From a virus, in the UHGV virus genome UHGV-0218015: 64,000 nucleotides of DNA. One strand, given 5' to 3'. Shown piece by piece: positions 7,953 through 49,550 of this stretch. A program made the translations under genes and the position numbers. Under the pieces are notes generated by a model. The model saw only the letters and a program-made list of their open reading frames with translations. It searched no databases and had not been told where the DNA came from. The first letter of the stretch is position 1. Every line of letters begins with the position of its first letter.

Positions 7953-8001
7953 ACGTGAACCAACACTACAATTGTATTAAACCTTATAAGGATTAAGTAA
8001 A

Positions 8002-9858
8002 ATGGCTAAAGAGTTTATTGACAATCAAAACGACGTTGTGACTGGTGCTGCTGGTGCTGCTGGTGCTGCTGCAGATCCAATTCCGTCTTTCGGTGGCGCG
8101 GGAGCTGCTACTGTGGATAATACCAATGCGGCCAACGCTTTTGGTGGGATGTCTAAAAACATCTCCACTTTCGATAAAGCTTTCGGATACATGTCCTTCG
8201 TGTCCACTGCTTCTCAGTTCACTAGCCTGATTGAGAAGATGGCGGAGAAGAACACATACCTGCGTAACTTCCGTTGGGGTGTCATTGACGGCATCAACTC
8301 TGAAATGGGTTCTGCTGCATACGTGGCTGGTCCGTCCGGCGATAACCATAACGAATGGCTCTACGGCATCCTGTTCTTTGAACATGGCCAGTCCATCCGT
8401 TTCTACGAAATCAACGGTAAAGAAAACTACTACACCCTGGCGCAGCTGTTCAGTCAAGAAGGTGTGATGAACAACATCACTAACCAGATTGCAACTCAAC
8501 ACAATCTGCCGAGCGTACAGTTCATGGTAATGAACTGCGTACCGGAACTGGGTAAAACCATGAACGAAGAATGGGCTAACCAGCTCATGGGCCAGATTGC
8601 ACTGGGTATCTTCGGTCGTCATTCTGGCTACCTGGGCTACCTGAAAATGACCCGTTCTGATCGCTTCACCGCGCAAGTTAGCGTAGTTGAAGAAGGTTCT
8701 GTAACTGACGTTAACGGTTCCGCACAGCGTGCTGACCTGATGGTTGTGGTTGACCATACTCGTACCGGCAACAACGATAATAACCCGACGCTGTTCTCTT
8801 CTGAACGCCTCCAGAATTATCCGAGCGTTGCAGGTGTTGGTTACATCAACCTCCGCCATAAAGGTAAACCTCAGACTCTGACTAACGGTACTCAGGACCT
8901 GCGTCAGCTGGAAGCCGAAGTGGTTGTTTCTCTGATGGATTCTCAATCCTCTGGGGCAATGGCACCTATCGAGCGTCAGCTGATTGAACTGGCCGCGTTC
9001 GCACAAATCGCCACTATCGGCGGCTGGCGTGAACGTTTCATGCAATCGCTGAACAAAACCGATCGTCGCTTCTCCCGCGTTCTGGAGTATGTAGAATGGG
9101 GCAGCGAAAAACCTGACCTGAGCAAAATCGACGGTAACCGTGAAGTTATCGAGAAATGCCTGGACACCTTCGCTAACCCGACTGCGGCTCTGGTGGTGAA
9201 CCATCGTGCAGGTAACGGTATCGGTGGTCTGTCTACTCTCCTGAGTGAAATCGGGATGGGTAACACCAACGCACTGTATACTCTGTTCAACATCCTGGAT
9301 AACATGGCCAGCAACGGCGCGACTAAGTTCAGCACTCGCTTCAAAGCGCTGCTGGGCAAGGACACCAACTTTGAGTGCAAACATGTTGTTATTGCCGGTT
9401 GCCCGACTATCTCTGGTCAGTATTTCAGCAACAGCCAGAAACGTAGCTTCCAGGATATGGACTTGGTTTCCGCTCTGACTAAAGTGGGCGACAACCAGCG
9501 TGATGCGATCGACTACATCAGTGCACAGTCCTACTCTCACCGCTACCTGAATGCGCGTGACCAGCGTCTGTACCTGCTGAAAATGGCTGCGTCCATGTTC
9601 GGTAGCAAACAGCCGCAGGTAACGGGTGAAGCGTCTGACCTGGCGATCAATCCGTTGTTTGGTAAGGCACTGGTGGAATACATCACCGAAAACTGCAACT
9701 TCCAGGTGAACGGTGTTACCGCAGCGAACAGCCTCACTCACTCTGTGTTTGTTAACACGGGTAATGAGAACTTCGCTCTGTCTGGTAGCGGTCCTAACGC
9801 ATTTGGTAGCGATTTCGGTATGTCCTTCGCTGCAACTGACTGGCGTCCGACTTTCTAA
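8002..9858 (+). CDS. abundant 618-aa protein; candidate phage-nucleus shell protein (chimallin-like) or major structural protein
   Basis: extreme codon bias (652-codon stop-free antisense shadow), tandem promoters, strong terminator; Gly/Ala/Phe-rich termini with SFGG/AFGG motifs; sits immediately upstream of the RNAP beta-prime gene; functional call is inference. Confidence 0.55.
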   Translation: MAKEFIDNQNDVVTGAAGAAGAAADPIPSFGGAGAATVDNTNAANAFGGMSKNISTFDKAFGYMSFVSTASQFTSLIEKMAEKNTYLRNFRWGVIDGINSEMGSAAYVAGPSGDNHNEWLYGILFFEHGQSIRFYEINGKENYYTLAQLFSQEGVMNNITNQIATQHNLPSVQFMVMNCVPELGKTMNEEWANQLMGQIALGIFGRHSGYLGYLKMTRSDRFTAQVSVVEEGSVTDVNGSAQRADLMVVVDHTRTGNNDNNPTLFSSERLQNYPSVAGVGYINLRHKGKPQTLTNGTQDLRQLEAEVVVSLMDSQSSGAMAPIERQLIELAAFAQIATIGGWRERFMQSLNKTDRRFSRVLEYVEWGSEKPDLSKIDGNREVIEKCLDTFANPTAALVVNHRAGNGIGGLSTLLSEIGMGNTNALYTLFNILDNMASNGATKFSTRFKALLGKDTNFECKHVVIAGCPTISGQYFSNSQKRSFQDMDLVSALTKVGDNQRDAIDYISAQSYSHRYLNARDQRLYLLKMAASMFGSKQPQVTGEASDLAINPLFGKALVEYITENCNFQVNGVTAANSLTHSVFVNTGNENFALSGSGPNAFGSDFGMSFAATDWRPTF

Positions 9859-9887
9859 TAAGTTGGTAAGTAGTAAGCAGTAGTTGA

Positions 9888-9929
9888 GGGACAGGGGAAA
9901 ACCCCCTGTCCCTTCCCTCTCTTTTTTTG
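9888..9929 (+). terminator. intrinsic terminator
   Basis: gggacagggg aaaa ccccctgtccc followed by T-run. Confidence 0.7.
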
Positions 9930-9942
9930 TTGAGGATTCGGC

Positions 9943-11310
9943 GTGGAACATAAACTAGAATATTACGGGATTTCAGGGCGACTAATTAGTCACGATAAAA
10001 TGCTACGTGACTGTATACAAGAAGCGGAGGAAAAAGGCTACAAACCCCCGATTATTATCAATGACGTTGCTGCAACGATGGATACCATCGAAGCGTCAGA
10101 GATGATTAACCAAATACTTCAAAACCGAATCGTTGATGAAACACTCAACTCGGCTCCTATTTGCAGTCTGACCTGCGAATCACCTATTACCCATCGTTAT
10201 AATCTTGGGTTACGTTGCCCACATTGTGGTCATGTTGTTTCTGAACATCGGATTACGTCCGAAGTTTGGCTACGTGCACCCGATGAGATAGGTAACTTTA
10301 TCAATCCACGTTTTTGGTCTCTCTTTAATGCTTTCTTTGGCTCTAAGCTGAAAAAATTTAATCGTAACAAAGTGACGGTAGAGCGTGGTTCTGATTTGCT
10401 GCTATGGCTAATCGATCCGTACTACCATCCAGAAAAGGACGAAGGAACACGTGCTCGTGTGGTGAAAAGAATACTTGGTGAATACAGGTTCGAACGGGGA
10501 ATTCGAAACTTTATCGACCACCATCGAACCGTCTTTAATATCCTTACGTCCCCAGAAGCCTGGAAGGAGATTTATCCACCGACGAAAAACAACCGTTATG
10601 AGAGTGAACGCGTACGCTTAGAATGGCGTGAGTTCTTTCAGGAACAATCGTTCTCATTCTTTCCAAGACACCTTCCGATTATTTCATCGAAACTGATCGT
10701 TACAGAGGAGCGCCGACAAGGTATCTTTATCGATCCCGTTTACACCAGTGCCATCGATGCAGTAAAAAATGTGGCGTTGTTGTACACGAATGCACGTCGT
10801 ATCGAACCACGATTTATTATTCGTCGTGCGATCAAAGCGAATCGACAACTTGCGTATTTCTATATTGACCATCGTCAGGAAGTGATGGAAGGTAAACCTG
10901 GGTTCTATCGGGCAAAACTCGGGTCAACGCACGTACCGTGGGGCGGACGTGTGACTATCTCTCCTATCTCTGAACCTCACGATGCGTTGAAAGTTATTGC
11001 GCCTTGGCGTTGGTTAGTTCCTTTGGCGAGTGTTCACATTGAGAACAAGTTAGGTCGACGTGACTACACACCTCGACAGTGTGAACGAATTATTGCATTC
11101 GCGGCAATGCAGTATGTACCGTTGGTGCATGAAATTATTAATGAGCTGATTAAAGAATCCCCCGGCGGATTCGGTTTAATGTTGGAAGTTCTACGTAACC
11201 CAACATTGGTTCAGCTTTCTATTCAGACGTTGTTTATCTCAGCGGTACTGACAGATGTAACACAATGTTCTCTGCGTATTTCTGATCGCGTCATCAAAGC
11301 ACCTAATGCT
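9943..11310 (+). CDS. RNA polymerase beta-prime-like subunit, N-terminal part, exon 1
   Basis: GTG start with RBS; Zn-ribbon C..C...CPHCGH; GKPGFYRAKLGSTHVPWGGRVTISP and RNPTLVQLSIQ resemble bacterial beta-prime [23 protein letters not shown] and RAPTLHRLGIQ (from memory); coding sense ends at ...VIKAPNA. Confidence 0.7.
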
Positions 11311-11660
11311 AAATACTGGCCCACTAGACGGGAAACCTCTAGTGCGTATCCCTCGAATTGCTGGGAACTCCTAAAGCTTACGATCCCGACAGGGTGGCGA
11401 AAGTCAGAAACAATTCGTAAGATAGCCTATGCTAACCAATAATGCTAAGGGTTGAGATAATGGATAACCAGCAGCGATGAAAATCGTTCAACGACTATCG
11501 AAAGGGTAAAACCGAGTAGAGTAGCTGCTTAGTTTAGCGGCGAAGTGAGGGAGACCTACGGGTAGCAATACCTACGGTTATGATATAGTCTGTGCCCATG
11601 TGAAAGCATGGGAGGGTGTCATTGCACACCTGCTCCAAAAGGAACGGAGTGGACAAACAG
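11311..11660 (+). ncRNA. group I self-splicing intron (ORF-less, T4 td-like IA2 type)
   Basis: 350 nt between NA and DFDGD codons; U at -1, G at last position; core-like elements AATTGCTGGGAAC (P), GTTCAACGACTAT (R, 11486-11498), GATATAGTC (S, 11582-11590) with GACTA/TAGTC P7 pairing; P9-like hairpin cccatg tgaaag catggg. Confidence 0.7.
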
Positions 11661-11900
11661 GATTTCGATGGCGATCAGTTACAATGCAGATTGGCAATCG
11701 ACCAGATTGAAATGGAACTGGGCATGGCTTATCGTCCAGACAACGGGTTTATGTCAAGCACGAATGTGGATGAGGTTTCGAGCTGCATGATTCTCCATAA
11801 CGAGAACATCAGCAACATAAACCGTTTCTTCCAGGATACTGAAGAGGACCTGGAGGCCGGTATCGCGCTTGACTCGGAAATATTAAAAATGGCGGGGTAA
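11661..11900 (+). CDS. RNA polymerase beta-prime-like subunit, N-terminal part, exon 2
   Basis: begins DFDGDQL...FMSSTN (cf. NADFDGDQM...MMSTNN); frame open to stop at 11900. Confidence 0.65.
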   Translation, partial: DFDGDQLQCRLAIDQIEMELGMAYRPDNGFMSSTNVDEVSSCMILHNENISNINRFFQDTEEDLEAGIALDSEILKMAG

Positions 11901-12957: not shown

Positions 12958-13626
12958 ATGGATCAAGAACCGGGAAAATTTAATGGGGTGCCCATTGAAG
13001 AACTTTCTGGCCGTGCTAAGTTTGAGTTTGAGAAACTTCTTGAAATGGAAGAGATGCTTAAACAGGGCCAGGGTGTGTGCAGCGTGTTTACTGAATCGAT
13101 GTTCCGTCGACAAGGTTTACCGCTGTTGTCGGGGATGCTGGACGGTACGTTTAACGAAGATACCTGGACGGATTATGTAGGGAACGCTTTCGTTCCGTTA
13201 CAGATTGTTTCGGATTCGGATAATTCAAAACTGCTCTTTACGATCCCGCCTCTGCTTAATACCGGTCGGTCACTTCAACATGTTGACGGTCAGCCATCGC
13301 TCACCGAAGAAACAGAGATGATTCGCCAGCAAGCCGATATCATTTCCGAGGTCGGTGAACGGCAGATGTATCAGATGATCGATTATACGCTGGATGGTAT
13401 CGAACAGTTATCGTACGAAGAAAATGCACTTCGTGCAAAACAGGTTATCGATCTGTTAAACTGGATCTTCCGTCGTTATAACGTATCAGGGCAATTACCT
13501 TATCCTGAAGGACTTGAAGAATTGTGCAACCGTATCCAAGGACGAAAGAAACCTGCAACGGCGGCACAACCTGAACAGTCCTCCCCTGCTAAGGGAAGAA
13601 GAATCATCGATGAAGAGGATTACTAA
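12958..13626 (+). CDS. hypothetical protein (222 aa)
   Basis: ORF; start 2 nt after upstream stop. Confidence 0.5.
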   Translation: MDQEPGKFNGVPIEELSGRAKFEFEKLLEMEEMLKQGQGVCSVFTESMFRRQGLPLLSGMLDGTFNEDTWTDYVGNAFVPLQIVSDSDNSKLLFTIPPLLNTGRSLQHVDGQPSLTEETEMIRQQADIISEVGERQMYQMIDYTLDGIEQLSYEENALRAKQVIDLLNWIFRRYNVSGQLPYPEGLEELCNRIQGRKKPATAAQPEQSSPAKGRRIIDEEDY

Positions 13627-14758
13627 TCCGCCACCGAAACCAGTTGGCGTCAAACGCATTTTCTCAACGGGCGATGTACATTTACTGCACCGTCGTGTAC
13701 CGACGTGGCATATTGTTAACGTGCTCAAGGAAACCTTAGAACGGTTCGATAATACGATTGACGCTATTTATATAGCTGGCGATTTATTTGATGATTCCCG
13801 GCATTTGCGGCAAGAAGATTCTCAAGAAGCCATAGGGTTTTTAACCTGGTTATTGCTCTGGGCCAAACAGACGAATACCGCTATTCGTGTCTTGGAAGGA
13901 ACACCCTCCCACGATCATAAACAATCGAAAATCGTTGAAGAGTTAAATCAGGCGGTGGGTGCAGATTGTTTGTATCTGGATAAGATTGGGGTGTTTTACG
14001 ACGAGGCGTTAGGAGCGACTATCGGTTGGGTCCAGGACGAGTATAAAGCCCTGGGTTCAGAGTCTATTGATGCTGCCGCAACAGAACAGGAAATGGCTGA
14101 ATTATTAGCCACGCGCGGTATACAGCAGATGGATTTCTGCTTTATGCATGGCTGCTTTCAGTTCCAAGTTCCCGTTGAGTCTACCCGCTTTTTCCATACA
14201 GATTTTTGGGAACCGTTAGTCAAGCATTTGATTATCATCCACCACGATCATCGTAGGAAACAATTGGGTAAGATTCGTGTACCAGGCAGCCCCGATCGCC
14301 TGGCAATGGGTGAAGAAGAGGACAAAGGCTTTGCTATTGTCGATTTCACTCCTGATTTAGCCAGAGATTATTTCTTGGTTAATGAACGCGCTTGCCCGCA
14401 GGTTAAAATTGCTGCGGAGGAGGACTACGAATCGCAGTACGCGAAATGTCTCTCTGCGCTTGAGTATATTGATACTCATCCGTCCTCGGTAATAGGACGA
14501 TTGGAAATTGAATATTATCCCGATTCTCCATTGGCGGAAGCCATTACTCGGTGGAAATCGCAATATTCATTCCATATTTCAGGTACGCGTATACGTACGC
14601 CTGAAGAGGAGCAAATTCTCGCAGCCGGTTTTGCTATCGACGCAGAGGTCGAGGAAACCATCTCTGAAGAGAATGTTGAAGCGATTTTGTTAGAAGCATT
14701 AGTGCCGTTTAAATACGATGCACAAATTGTCACTGACATTATCAGGAGCATCAAATGA
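13610..14758 (+). CDS. SbcD/Mre11-like calcineurin-type phosphoesterase (putative recombination nuclease)
   Basis: motifs STGDVHL, IAGDLFDD, GTPSHDH, IIIHHDH in canonical order; start at ATG 13610 with AAGGGA RBS (ORF open from 13514). Confidence 0.5.
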   Translation: MKRITNPPPKPVGVKRIFSTGDVHLLHRRVPTWHIVNVLKETLERFDNTIDAIYIAGDLFDDSRHLRQEDSQEAIGFLTWLLLWAKQTNTAIRVLEGTPSHDHKQSKIVEELNQAVGADCLYLDKIGVFYDEALGATIGWVQDEYKALGSESIDAAATEQEMAELLATRGIQQMDFCFMHGCFQFQVPVESTRFFHTDFWEPLVKHLIIIHHDHRRKQLGKIRVPGSPDRLAMGEEEDKGFAIVDFTPDLARDYFLVNERACPQVKIAAEEDYESQYAKCLSALEYIDTHPSSVIGRLEIEYYPDSPLAEAITRWKSQYSFHISGTRIRTPEEEQILAAGFAIDAEVEETISEENVEAILLEALVPFKYDAQIVTDIIRSIK

Positions 14759-48874: not shown

Positions 48875-49516
48875 ATGAGCCGCATTAATTTAACTGATTT
48901 TGTTGATGGTGTTGTGTCTATGGAGAAAGGTGTCGTTACGATGGTGGCACCGAACAGTAAAGTTGTTACTTTAAATCCGGTAGAAGTGATTTCTATTTCT
49001 ACCTGGTTGCGCTTACTTTCTGGTAAGAAACCTAAAGAGCAAACGAAGGGTGGCTTATTAGTCGGTACACGCGAGTTTGTTTTCAAAGCCATAAACCAAG
49101 ATAAACTGGACAGCTTTGCTAACGAACTGAACGCCAAACTTAAAACCAACGGGATCGGGAGTGCCGAATACGACGGAGTAACGTACCATGCATTTCTTGA
49201 TAGCCACGTAGCGTTGCGTGAAAAAGAAAATGGAATGTACGATTCCGTTTGTTTCTTTCATTTAATTGCACCAACAGAGAACGATGCTGTGTATAATACC
49301 ATTGAAAAATCGGCGGAAGCTGTTATGGAAACGGTATCAGAACTTGTAGAAGGGATGAAAAGAATCCCACGTGTGTTGAAAGTTACTGATGGTGCTATCG
49401 ATTGTTTTAAATTATTACCCCTAATAGCCAGTAAAGAATTCGAAGAAGAGAACACGTTCGGACTATTTGAACTTAGCCTTTCGGAAGCAGTTGTTACTTT
49501 CTTTGAAAACTTGTAA
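48875..49516 (+). CDS. hypothetical protein
   Basis: ORF 48848..49516; start moved to ATG 48875 with TAGGAG RBS. Confidence 0.5.
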   Translation: MSRINLTDFVDGVVSMEKGVVTMVAPNSKVVTLNPVEVISISTWLRLLSGKKPKEQTKGGLLVGTREFVFKAINQDKLDSFANELNAKLKTNGIGSAEYDGVTYHAFLDSHVALREKENGMYDSVCFFHLIAPTENDAVYNTIEKSAEAVMETVSELVEGMKRIPRVLKVTDGAIDCFKLLPLIASKEFEEENTFGLFELSLSEAVVTFFENL

Positions 49517-49518
49517 GT

Positions 49519-49550
49519 TAAAGCCCTCTACGGAGGGCTTTATTTTTTTC
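49519..49550 (+). terminator. intrinsic terminator
   Basis: aaagccctc tacg gagggcttt followed by T-run. Confidence 0.65.

What the first reader, a model, noticed from the sequence alone, without database searches (positions are those of the whole stretch)
11311..11660. ORF-less group I intron splitting the RNA polymerase beta-prime gene inside its NADFDGD catalytic motif
The frame-0 ORF from 9943 carries beta-prime N-terminal hallmarks (Zn ribbon CxxC...CPHCGH; GKPGFYRAKLGSTHVPWGGRVTISP; RNPTLVQLSIQ) and reaches ...VIKAPNA at nt 11310, after which the frame makes no sense and stops. The catalytic motif DFDGDQ plus FMSSTN lies 350 nt downstream in a different frame (from 11661). Removing 11311..11660 joins AAT GCT | GAT TTC GAT GGC GAT, giving NADFDGD exactly, with U at -1, G as last intron nucleotide and intron length 2 mod 3. 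This is the only canonical U/G junction that restores the motif. The intervening RNA has no ORF and carries group I core-like elements: AATTGCTGGGAAC (P-like), GTTCAACGACTAT (R), GATATAGTC (S) with GACTA/TAGTC P7 pairing, a CACTAGA/TCTAGTG hairpin (P2-like) and a P9-like hairpin; the R and S strings are very close to those I recall from the T4 td intron. A short P1 (GCU|A pairing with UGGC, with a U.G wobble at the splice site) is possible but weak, so the exact 5' boundary is the least certain part.
Basis: partly seen in the sequence, partly recalled or inferred. Interest (0 to 1): 0.85.

Follow-up and report, generated by a model that had tools for sequence, protein, structure and literature searches.

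The report
Self-splicing intron in phage RNA polymerase
A 350-base self-splicing group I intron with no gene of its own interrupts the catalytic-site motif of an RNA polymerase subunit gene in a giant, nucleus-forming phage; the call is correct to the base, but it is an ordinary new example of a kind already known in phiKZ-like phages.

Summary
Window 11311-11660 (+) matches Rfam Intron_gpI above its curated threshold (60.5 bits against 50, E 7e-13). It is the only such match in the 64 kb.

A 95%-identical phage contig that lacks the intron (L010) aligns with one gap, exactly 11311-11660. Its junction reads KAPNA|DFDGD.

Removing the intron gives a 535-aa protein. It aligns in one piece with SPN3US gp23 and phiEaH2 (67-69% identity) and with phiKZ gp55 (PDB 7OGP), which reads KAPNADFDGDQL across the join.

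A hand-built P1-P9.2 structure pairs in 93% of cells across 8 homologues. 37 of 88 pairs carry compensatory changes, including one next to the splice-site U.G in P1.

The host gene is the N-terminal beta-prime-like subunit of the non-virion RNA polymerase of a chimallivirus; the chimallin gene lies just upstream.

Homologous introns sit at the same codon boundary in published Seoulvirus genomes, where they are annotated as two genes. Some relatives carry an HNH endonuclease ORF in loop L1.

The intron is 97.7% identical between two lineages whose exons are about 74% identical, so it moved recently.

Introns in phiKZ gp55 are already reported. Verdict: real, correctly interpreted, a new member of a known kind.

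The parts
8002..9858 (+). Context gene: chimallin (ChmA, phage-nucleus shell protein) homologue, immediately upstream of the host gene
   Evidence: 52% identical over 589 aa to Asesino gp39, which was shown by GFP tagging to be ChmA (PMC11724907). phrog_8316, E 1e-232. The gene order is the same in SPN3US, phiEaH2 and Asesino.
9943..11310 (+). Exon 1 of the nvRNAP beta-prime N-terminal subunit gene (456 codons, GTG start, ends ...VIKAPNA)
   Evidence: tblastn of SPN3US gp23 and phiEaH2 covers residues 1-456. blastn to the intron-less L010 covers window 9943-11310 without a gap.
11311..11660 (+). Group I intron, 350 nt, no ORF, subgroup IA-like architecture
   Evidence: RF00028 at 60.5 bits against a threshold of 50. 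Absent from L010 and L011 exactly at these coordinates. Covariation across homologues. Unconstrained minimum-free-energy fold recovers P2-P6, P7.2, P8 and P9; z-score -2.8.
11308..11320 (+). P1: exon GCU plus intron A (11308-11311) pairs with the internal guide UGGC (11317-11320); U11310.G11318 is the splice-site wobble
   Evidence: U.G in 8 of 8 homologues. The -2 pair is C-G in 5, G-C in 2 and A-U in 1. The -3 pair G-C is invariant. EC001 has exon GGU with guide GCC.
11322..11344 (+). P2 hairpin CACUAGA/UCUAGUG
   Evidence: 7 bp, 100% of cells paired, 3 pairs with changes on both sides.
11349..11354 (+). P3 5' strand UCCCUC (pairs with 11547-11552 GAGGGA); forms a pseudoknot with P7
   Evidence: 6 bp, 100% paired, 3 pairs with changes on both sides.
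11359..11473 (+). P4-P5 domain: P4 11359-11364/11468-11473; P5 11369-11371/11462-11464; P5a 11377-11383/11415-11421; P5b 11385-11387/11392-11394; P5c 11395-11398/11403-11406; P5d 11424-11427/11450-11453
   Evidence: Coordinates. P5a has 6 of 7 pairs with changes on both sides, P5c 3 of 4, P5d 2 of 4. P4 is conserved.
11474..11487 (+). P6 hairpin GCGAU-GAAA-AUCGU
   Evidence: The outer 3 bp are conserved; the inner part is longer in relatives.
11493..11497 (+). P7 5' strand GACUA (pairs with 11586-11590 UAGUC); expected guanosine-binding helix
   Evidence: 5 bp, 100% paired. SaP7 has the compensatory GACCG/UGGUC.
11498..11541 (+). P7.1 (11498-11500/11513-11515) and P7.2 (11524-11529/11536-11541), the subgroup IA insertions between P7 and P3'
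   Evidence: P7.2: 5 of 6 pairs with changes on both sides. P7.1 reads UCG/CGA here, UCGC/GCGA in EC001, GAGC/GCUC in SaP7 and Raoultella, UCCG/CGGA in Vibrio (read). T4 td has the same order of elements.
11554..11578 (+). P8 (outer 11554-11556/11576-11578, inner 11560-11563/11570-11573)
   Evidence: Outer helix 100% paired with 1 compensatory pair.
11595..11650 (+). P9 (11595-11601/11606-11612), P9.1 (11614-11619/11626-11631), P9.2 (11632-11636/11646-11650)
   Evidence: The inner 4 pairs of P9 all have changes on both sides. P9.2 has 2 compensatory pairs.
11660..11660 (+). Terminal guanosine (omega-G) of the intron
   Evidence: G in the window and at the 3' end of all 8 aligned homologues.
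11661..11900 (+). Exon 2 (79 codons plus stop; begins DFDGDQLQ...)
   Evidence: blastn to L010 resumes at 11661. tblastn residues 457-531. phiKZ gp55 alignment.

Best explanation
Window 11311-11660 is a group I (subgroup IA-like) self-splicing intron without an ORF. It lies in the gene for the N-terminal beta-prime-like subunit (phiKZ gp55 / Asesino gp40 orthologue) of the non-virion RNA polymerase of a nucleus-forming jumbo phage related to Erskinevirus and Seoulvirus.

Expected mechanism, inferred from the family: the RNA folds into the P1-P9.2 core. An external guanosine bound in P7 attacks after U11310, which is held in a U.G wobble by the internal guide UGGC. The freed 3'-OH of U11310 then attacks after the terminal G11660. 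This joins GCU|GAU, so the mRNA encodes a 535-aa protein with an intact NADFDGD magnesium-binding motif. Without splicing, translation stops at 11442 and the catalytic aspartates are lost.

The intron is, or recently was, a mobile element. It is a presence/absence polymorphism in two phage lineages. It is almost identical between them although their exons are about 26% diverged. Relatives carry an HNH/NUMOD nicking-endonuclease ORF in loop L1. This copy has no endonuclease, so it most likely spreads during co-infection, either with an endonuclease supplied in trans or by plain recombination. That last step is inferred.
For: Shown by computation:
- RF00028 at 60.5 bits against 50, E 7e-13, and the only such match in the window.
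- All six intron-containing relatives tested also match (51.9-69.4 bits). The two intron-less relatives give no match.
- L010 (95% nucleotide identity) and L011 lack exactly 11311-11660 and read KAPNA|DFDGD.
- EC001 and SPN3US have 99.8% identical exons and differ by a 356-nt insert at the same codon boundary, 456|457.
- The spliced product aligns in one piece, 100% coverage, 68.6% identity, to phiEaH2. It matches phrog_2987 over profile positions 1-477 of 478. It matches phiKZ gp55 (7OGP_A) at E 1e-37 with KAPNADFDGDQL identical across the join.
- Structure: 93.2% of cells paired. 37 of 88 pairs have changes on both sides, against 6-11 for the slid controls. 0 of 500 shuffles reach the observed covariation score.
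- Mobility: the intron is 97.7% identical between the window and L009, while exons are 72-75% identical, and the step is sharp at both boundaries. L009 and its intron-less sister L011 are 98.6% identical overall but have 9 differences within about 18 nt on either side of the junction.
- HNH_3 plus NUMOD1 / I-HmuI-like ORFs sit in L1 of the SaP7 and phiKp_32 homologues.

From the literature:
- DFDGD in phiKZ gp55 coordinates the catalytic Mg2+ (PMC8287921).
- Introns in phiKZ gp55 have been reported (PMC11512511).
Against: - There is no RNA or protein evidence for this phage; splicing is inferred.
- P1 is short here: 4 bp, of which 3 involve the exon.
- The exon-1 frame stays open for 44 codons into the intron, so translating ribosomes could disturb folding.
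- Long-read transcriptomics of phiKZ did not detect splicing of its predicted introns under the conditions used (PMC10914365).
- No homing endonuclease is present in the intron. No homologue of the relatives' L1 ORFs is found in the 64-kb window, so the route of spread is unproven.
- The covariation rests on 8 sequences representing about 5 independent lineages, and the structure was drawn from the window sequence.
Confidence: 0.93

Rival explanations
1. The gene is truly split. Two separate polypeptides are made, 9943-11442 and 11616-11900, as annotated in EC001 and Lh1B ('beta subunit 1' and 'beta subunit 2'). They assemble without any RNA splicing, and the intervening DNA is only a spacer.
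For: Jumbo-phage RNA polymerase subunits are naturally split into several polypeptides (PMC7598289). A GTG at 11616 opens a 94-aa ORF in the exon-2 frame. Published annotations of EC001, Lh1B, SaP7 and Churi list two CDS.
Against: - The split would fall inside NA|DFDGD, between strands beta5 and beta6 of the catalytic double-psi beta-barrel (PMC8287921).
- The 'spacer' matches the group I model and shows compensatory base changes.
- Relatives 95-99.8% identical in the exons have an uninterrupted gene at this point.
- The first product would carry 43 unrelated residues after ...APNA.
Confidence: 0.02
2. The insert is a decayed intron that no longer splices, so the gene is a pseudogene in this phage or metagenomic assembly.
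For: The intron has lost any endonuclease ORF. P1 is only 4 bp. There is no expression evidence.
Against: - All core helices are intact, and U at -1 and the terminal G are retained.
- The window and L008 introns differ at only 3 positions, and the window and L009 introns at 8. Two of the three sites that differ between the window and L008 lie in the P9.2 3' strand, where one search counts standard pairs at those positions in every sequence with letters there.
- The exons stay open and 67-69% identical to functional orthologues.
- This subunit belongs to the conserved chimallivirus core set (PMC11724907).
Confidence: 0.03
3. The interruption is handled at the protein or translation level (an intein, ribosomal bypassing or frameshifting), not by RNA splicing.
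For: Inteins and translational bypassing (T4 gene 60; my own knowledge, not tested here) occur in phage genes at conserved sites.
Against: The 350 nt are not a multiple of 3, and the incoming frame hits a stop at 11440-11442, which excludes an intein. A 350-nt bypass has no precedent. The RNA-level evidence already accounts for the interruption.
Confidence: 0.01

Closest known systems
Introns of the phiKZ gp55 / gp56 / gp56.1 locus (nvRNAP beta-prime N-terminal subunit of Phikzvirus)
   Same: Same orthologous gene, directly downstream of chimallin, and the same catalytic motif. In the phiKZ-like phage Churi, an insert of about 492 nt with no annotated ORF matches RF00028 at 85.3 bits and interrupts N|ADFDGD. 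The PDB chain 7OGP_A is named PHIKZ055|PHIKZ056.1. Introns in gp55 are cited in PMC11512511.
   Different: The insertion point is 3 nt upstream (N|A rather than A|D). The sequences share only short core stretches. phiKZ-like phages have a second upstream intron with an HNH ORF in the same gene, and the window has none.
Unrecognised homologues in published Seoulvirus genomes (EC001, Lh1B, JN03, SPLA3, SPLA5c, phage 1252; SaP7 and Proteus phage 7 with an ORF) and in Raoultella VB_ZK_P1 / Klebsiella phiKp_32
   Same: The same codon boundary (residue 456|457), the same architecture, 70-72% nucleotide identity over 93-98% of the intron, and RF00028 scores of 51.9-69.4 bits.
   Different: - The exon codon is GGU (Gly) with guide GCC in Seoulvirus, against GCU (Ala) with guide GGC here.
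- SaP7, Proteus phage 7 and phiKp_32 carry a 288- or 339-aa HNH endonuclease ORF in L1.
- These records annotate two CDS or hypothetical proteins and no intron.
PhiPA3 gp210 intron in the virion RNA polymerase beta-subunit gene (Birkholz et al. 2024, PMC11620839)
   Same: A group I intron in a chimallivirus RNA polymerase gene, placed next to conserved catalytic-region aspartates. It has an HNH nicking homing endonuclease of the same general class as the L1 ORFs of this intron's relatives.
   Different: It is in a different gene (the virion polymerase beta subunit, not the non-virion beta-prime) and carries its endonuclease. The window intron has no ORF. A 49-nt stretch of the window intron is 93.9% identical to DNA in another PhiPA3 RNA polymerase fragment gene, 065.
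T4 td and nrdB introns (annotated 'group 1A intron' in NC_000866)
   Same: The core strings are shared. GTTCAACGACTA and GATATAGTCTG are identical in nrdB. GATATAGTCTG and AACGACTATC are identical in td. The P2 sequence CTAGACGGGAAACCTCT compares with td CTAAACGGGGAACCTCT. The order P7, P7.1, GAGUAG, P7.2, P3' is the same.
   Different: The host genes differ (nucleotide metabolism). The T4 introns carry ORFs in other loops (I-TevI, I-TevIII). The window intron has a large P5a-d extension and no ORF.

Membership tests
Group I intron (Rfam RF00028) | Covariance-model score at or above the curated gathering threshold | tested here: met
   60.5 bits against 50, E 7.2e-13, model positions 1-253 of 253.
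Group I intron (Rfam RF00028) | 5' splice site follows a U held in a U.G wobble in P1 by an internal guide sequence | tested here: met
   U11310.G11318. U.G in 8 of 8 homologues. The adjacent pair covaries (C-G 5, G-C 2, A-U 1).
Group I intron (Rfam RF00028) | The intron ends in G (omega-G) | tested here: met
   G11660. All homologues end in G.
Group I intron (Rfam RF00028) | Conserved core P3-P8 and P4-P6 with the P3/P7 pseudoknot, supported by covariation | tested here: met
   93.2% of cells paired. 37 of 88 pairs have changes on both sides against 6-11 in the slid controls. P3 and P7 are 100% paired.
Group I intron (Rfam RF00028) | Precise removal restores a continuous, conserved reading frame | tested here: met
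   The intron-less alleles L010 and L011. One-piece alignment to SPN3US gp23, phiEaH2 and phiKZ gp55.
Group I intron (Rfam RF00028) | Guanosine- and Mg2+-dependent self-splicing of the transcript | not testable with these tools
   Needs in vitro transcription and splicing, or RT-PCR from infected cells.
Subgroup IA (T4 td / nrdB type) | Extra helices P7.1 and P7.2 between the P7 5' strand and the P3 3' strand | tested here: met
   P7.1 at 11498-11500/11513-11515. P7.2 at 11524-11529/11536-11541, with 5 of 6 compensatory pairs. T4 td has the same arrangement.
Subgroup IA (T4 td / nrdB type) | Formal assignment to IA2 against a curated subgroup library (GISSD-type models) | not tested
   No subgroup models are available. 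Only string-level comparison with T4 td and nrdB was done.
Mobile group I intron with its own homing endonuclease | An endonuclease ORF inside a peripheral loop | tested here: not met
   No ORF longer than 40 aa lies within 11311-11660, and L1 is 5 nt. Relatives have HNH_3/NUMOD1 ORFs in L1. No homologue is found in the window.
Mobile group I intron with its own homing endonuclease | Evidence of horizontal movement (presence/absence polymorphism; intron far more similar than its flanks) | tested here: met
   Two lineages each have members with and without the intron. Intron 97.7% against exons 72-75% identical.
Intein | An in-frame insertion translated together with the host protein | tested here: not met
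   350 nt is 2 mod 3, and there is a stop at 11440-11442 in the incoming frame.
nvRNAP beta-prime N-terminal subunit (phiKZ gp55 family) as the host gene | Homology to gp55, including the zinc ribbon and the NADFDGD motif | tested here: met
   7OGP_A at E 1.3e-37. phrog_2987 at E 1e-162. Orthologue of Asesino gp40, 'nvRNAP beta'1'.

The most novel reading that the evidence does not exclude
The roughly 21-nt NADFDGD-coding segment of the chimallivirus nvRNAP beta-prime gene may be a contested landing pad for introns. Group I introns occupy at least four different positions in it: N|A in phiKZ-like Churi, A|D here, D|F in Vibrio and Photobacterium phages, and D|Q in PS119XW. A fifth, unclassified structured insert sits at G|D in Raoultella and Klebsiella phages, leaving a 12-nt micro-exon.

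The Vibrio intron is a sequence homologue of the window intron whose guide sequence has been retuned 3 nt downstream.

On this reading, ORF-less copies such as this one persist and spread because occupying the site destroys the target of the HNH nicking endonucleases carried by co-infecting relatives. They would then protect an essential gene in the kind of interference competition shown for PhiPA3 gp210. The protective role is untested.
Probability: 0.25. Interest if true: 0.55.

Novelty: new member of a known kind. Interest (0 to 1): 0.3.

Why it matters
- Annotation: the gene should be recorded as one spliced CDS, join(9943..11310,11661..11900). The same correction applies to several published Seoulvirus, Raoultella, Klebsiella, Vibrio and Photobacterium phage genomes, which list two fragments or hypothetical proteins.
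- Biology: it adds a clean natural example to the known pattern of mobile introns in jumbo-phage RNA polymerase genes. There are near-identical phages with and without the intron in two diverged lineages.
- The intron has no endonuclease yet clearly moved recently. That makes a usable system for asking how endonuclease-less introns spread, and whether site occupancy protects against competitors' endonucleases in nucleus-forming phages, where transcription and translation are physically separated.
- It does not reveal a new kind of element.

Tried and rejected
- Megablast of the gene against GenBank phages gave no match, so the phage itself is not a published isolate. Protein and distant-DNA searches were needed.
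- Pfam on the spliced protein gave only a sub-threshold RNA_pol_Rpb1_2 match (E 0.001, 19.8 bits against 25.3). The match spans the junction but is not decisive.
- The chimallin identity of the upstream gene could not be shown through PDB sequences or by BLASTP against the Vibrio phage 'nuclear shell protein'. It was established through Asesino gp39 instead.
- A search for further copies of the 3' junction in IMG/VR found only the two contigs already in hand.
- An E-value-level Rfam scan found no second intron in the window. The only other match is a weak sRNA hit at 49509-49547, below threshold. There are no tRNAs.
- The second insert of Raoultella and Klebsiella phages gave no RF00028 match even at E<=1 and resembles nothing else fetched, so I could not classify it.
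- The SPFM1 region with scrambled similarity to this intron gave no group I match.
- Three papers were not held or had no relevant text.
- My first dot-bracket structure mis-nested the P3/P7 pseudoknot, so the energy printed for the hand-drawn structure is meaningless. This was corrected with separate brackets before counting.
- My assumed T4 td intron coordinates were off by one base at the 3' end. Only the motif strings were used.

Full report
**1. The observation**

- The ORF that starts with GTG at 9943 reads ...RISDRVIKAPNA up to 11310. It then runs through 43 unrelated codons to a stop at 11440-11442.
- DFDGDQ and FMSSTN lie in a different frame from 11661.
- Base 11310 is T and base 11660 is G.
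- The interval is 350 nt (2 mod 3). Joining 11310 to 11661 gives AAT GCT GAT TTC GAT GGC GAT, which encodes NADFDGD.

Rfam's group I intron model (RF00028) matches 11301-11612 on the + strand at 60.5 bits. The threshold is 50 and the E-value is 7e-13, over the full model. It is the only RNA family match at threshold in the 64 kb. A more permissive scan adds no other intron. There are no tRNA genes.

**2. The boundaries are fixed by natural intron-less alleles**

IMG/VR holds four relatives of the gene.
- L008 is 99% identical in nucleotides and has the intron, with 3 base differences inside it.
- L009 is about 74% identical in the exons and has a 350-nt intron.
- L010 is 95-96% identical and has no intron.
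- L011 is the sister of L009 (98.6% identical) and has no intron.

blastn of the window gene against L010 gives two blocks, 9943-11310 and 11661-11900, which are adjacent in L010. L010 reads AAAGCGCCTAACGCT|GATTTCGATGGCGAC, that is KAPNA|DFDGD. The bases flanking the gap differ (T|A at the 5' end, G|G at the 3' end), so the gap cannot be slid. The intron is 11311-11660, exactly as proposed.

A second natural pair confirms the site. Escherichia phage EC001 and Salmonella phage SPN3US have 99.8% identical exons and differ by a 356-nt insert between codons 456 and 457.

RF00028 matches every intron-containing relative tested (51.9-69.4 bits). It matches nothing in L010 or L011.

**3. The host gene**

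The spliced 535-aa product behaves as a single protein.
- It aligns in one piece over 100% of its length to phiEaH2 AFQ96750 (68.6% identity) and over 98% to SPN3US gp23.
- It matches phrog_2987 'RNA polymerase beta subunit' over profile positions 1-477 of 478.
- It matches phiKZ gp55 in the solved non-virion RNA polymerase (7OGP chain A, E 1.3e-37). In that alignment KAPNADFDGDQL is identical across the join.

In phiKZ gp55, DFDGD coordinates the catalytic Mg2+ within the double-psi beta-barrel (PMC8287921).

The gene upstream (8002-9858) is 52% identical to Asesino gp39. Asesino gp39 was shown experimentally to be chimallin, and Asesino gp40 is called nvRNAP beta'1 (PMC11724907).

The window therefore comes from a chimallivirus, a nucleus-forming jumbo phage related to Erskinevirus and Seoulvirus. 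The interrupted gene is the N-terminal beta-prime-like subunit of its non-virion polymerase. It is not a full-length bacterial beta-prime.

**4. Structure**

I drew P1-P9.2 on the window sequence; the coordinates are. I tested the drawing on a MAFFT alignment of 8 homologues: the window, L008, L009, EC001, SaP7, Raoultella VB_ZK_P1, phiKp_32 and Vibrio phage 2 TSL-2019.

Results of the count:
- 93.2% of cells form standard pairs.
- 37 of 88 pairs show changes on both sides, against 6-11 when the 3' partners are slid by 1-3 columns.
- No shuffle out of 500 reaches the observed covariation score.

The splice-site U.G is invariant. The next pair is C-G in five sequences, G-C in two and A-U in one, so the guide sequence tracks the exon: GCU with GGC here, GGU with GCC in Seoulvirus, GAU with GUC in Vibrio.

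P2, P3, P5a, P5c, P5d, P7, P7.2, P8, P9 and P9.2 all carry compensatory changes.

An unconstrained minimum-free-energy fold recovers most of these helices, with a z-score of -2.8.

P7.1 and P7.2 between P7 and P3', and the shared strings with the T4 nrdB and td introns (annotated as group 1A), place the intron in subgroup IA. I could not run a formal subgroup classifier.

**5. Relatives and mobility**

The same intron is present, at the same codon boundary and 70-72% identical, in published phages: EC001, Lh1B, JN03, SPLA3, SPLA5c, phage 1252, SaP7, Proteus phage 7, Raoultella VB_ZK_P1 and Klebsiella phiKp_32. None of the records I opened (EC001, SaP7, Proteus phage 7, Raoultella VB_ZK_P1, phiKp_32) annotates it as an intron.

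In SaP7, Proteus phage 7 and phiKp_32, loop L1 is expanded by a 288- or 339-aa ORF closed by a long stem. In SaP7 and phiKp_32 these ORFs match HNH_3 plus NUMOD1 or I-HmuI-like domains, below Pfam's own cut-offs except for NUMOD1 in SaP7; the Proteus phage 7 ORF was not scanned. The window intron has a 5-nt L1 and no ORF. The 64-kb window has no homologue of those enzymes.

Two results point to recent movement.
- Between the window and L009 the intron is 97.7% identical while exon 1 is 74.9% and exon 2 is 72.5% identical. The step is sharp at both boundaries.
- L009 and its intron-less sister L011 differ at 9 positions within about 18 nt of the junction, although they are 98.6% identical overall. 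This pattern fits a short co-conversion tract from DNA-level homing.

L008, L009 and L011 come from the same metagenome.

**6. Mechanism**

What is shown:
- membership of the group I family
- exact boundaries
- a covarying catalytic core
- restoration of an essential catalytic motif
- presence/absence polymorphism
- much higher similarity of the intron than of its flanks

What is inferred from the family: guanosine-initiated two-step transesterification, with attack after U11310 and then after G11660.

Also inferred: spread in co-infections, using either a relative's HNH enzyme in trans or plain recombination. Splicing probably occurs away from ribosomes, because chimalliviruses transcribe inside the phage nucleus (PMC12908238).

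**7. Comparison with what is known**

Group I introns at catalytic-site codons of essential phage genes are textbook material. For jumbo phages specifically:
- Introns are reported in phiKZ gp55 and gp180, with endonucleases gp56, gp72 and gp179 (PMC11512511, PMC10914365).
- Introns are drawn in the virion-polymerase scheme of SPN3US, phiKZ and 201phi2-1 (PMC5105663).
- The PhiPA3 gp210 intron has been studied functionally (PMC11620839).

In the phiKZ-like phage Churi I find two RF00028 matches in this gene. The second interrupts N|ADFDGD, 3 nt upstream of the site used here.

The finding is therefore a new member of a known kind. It is correctly called and of modest interest.

**8. The comparative picture**

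The most interesting result lies outside the window. Insertions occur at N|A (Churi), A|D (this family), D|F (Vibrio 2 TSL-2019 and PDCC-1, a sequence homologue with a retuned guide) and D|Q (PS119XW).

In Raoultella and Klebsiella phages a second structured insert of about 311 nt sits at G|D, leaving a 12-nt micro-exon. That insert has U/G boundaries and a plausible P1, but it does not match RF00028. Its fold z-score is -3.6.

Whether this clustering reflects competition for a single conserved target, and whether ORF-less copies protect the gene from competitors' endonucleases, is untested.

Noticed in passing
L006 2372-2694 (Raoultella phage VB_ZK_P1) and L007 2358-2680 (Klebsiella phage phiKp_32): After the homologous intron comes a 12-nt micro-exon, GATTTTGACGGT (DFDG). 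A second insert of about 311 nt follows, and then GATACC... restores DFDG|D. The insert starts AAACGUAUUGCC (P1-like GGUAA/UUGCC with U.G) and ends in G. It folds strongly (z-score -3.6) but has no RF00028 match even at E<=1. Its only outside similarity is 77-79% over about 95 nt to unannotated DNA of Aeromonas phages CF8, ZPAH34 and AhC3_1. It may be a divergent or unclassified intron.
   Followed up: partly
L071 (Churi, phiKZ-like), L072 (PS119XW), L068 and L070 (Vibrio 2 TSL-2019, Photobacterium PDCC-1): Group I introns, all matching RF00028 at threshold in L068, L071 and L072, interrupt the same gene at different positions within NADFDGD. Churi is interrupted at N|A and also has a second upstream intron with an HNH ORF. 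The Vibrio and Photobacterium phages are interrupted at D|F. PS119XW is interrupted at D|Q. This is an insertion hot spot spanning about 18 nt.
   Followed up: partly
L001 2486-4437, L004, L005, L006, L007, L068, L070, L071, L072: The published records opened here (EC001, SaP7, Proteus phage 7, Raoultella VB_ZK_P1, phiKp_32, Vibrio 2 TSL-2019, PDCC-1, Churi, PS119XW) annotate the interrupted gene as two separate CDS or as hypothetical proteins, not as one spliced gene.
   Followed up: yes
L009 against L011, within about 40 nt on either side of the junction (window-equivalent 11290-11700): The two contigs are 98.6% identical overall and come from the same metagenome. They differ at 5 synonymous sites in the last 16 nt of exon 1 and at 4 sites in the first 18 nt of exon 2. 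This looks like a short co-conversion tract left by acquisition of the intron.
   Followed up: partly
L069 2501-2777 (Salmonella phage SPFM1, between fragments of another RNA polymerase subunit gene): Three pieces are 82-93% identical to parts of the window intron but lie in scrambled order: intron positions 274-330, then 87-143, then 39-68. There is no group I match at any threshold. I have no explanation for this. It may be a rearranged intron remnant.
   Followed up: partly
window 7993-9951 (-): A 652-aa ORF lies antisense to the chimallin gene and spans it entirely. The + strand product has strong homologues (phrog_8316 at E 1e-232; 52% identity to Asesino ChmA), so the antisense ORF is most likely a mechanical artefact.
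   Followed up: partly
window 13514-14758 (+): An SbcD-like nuclease subunit (phrog_100, E 7e-61). It lies in the same position as in SPN3US, Asesino and EC001, which confirms conserved gene order around the host gene.
   Followed up: no
window 49509-49547 (+): A sub-threshold Rfam match to the Staphylococcus sRNA sau-6072 (31.4 bits against 50, E 0.026). It is probably just a hairpin.
   Followed up: no
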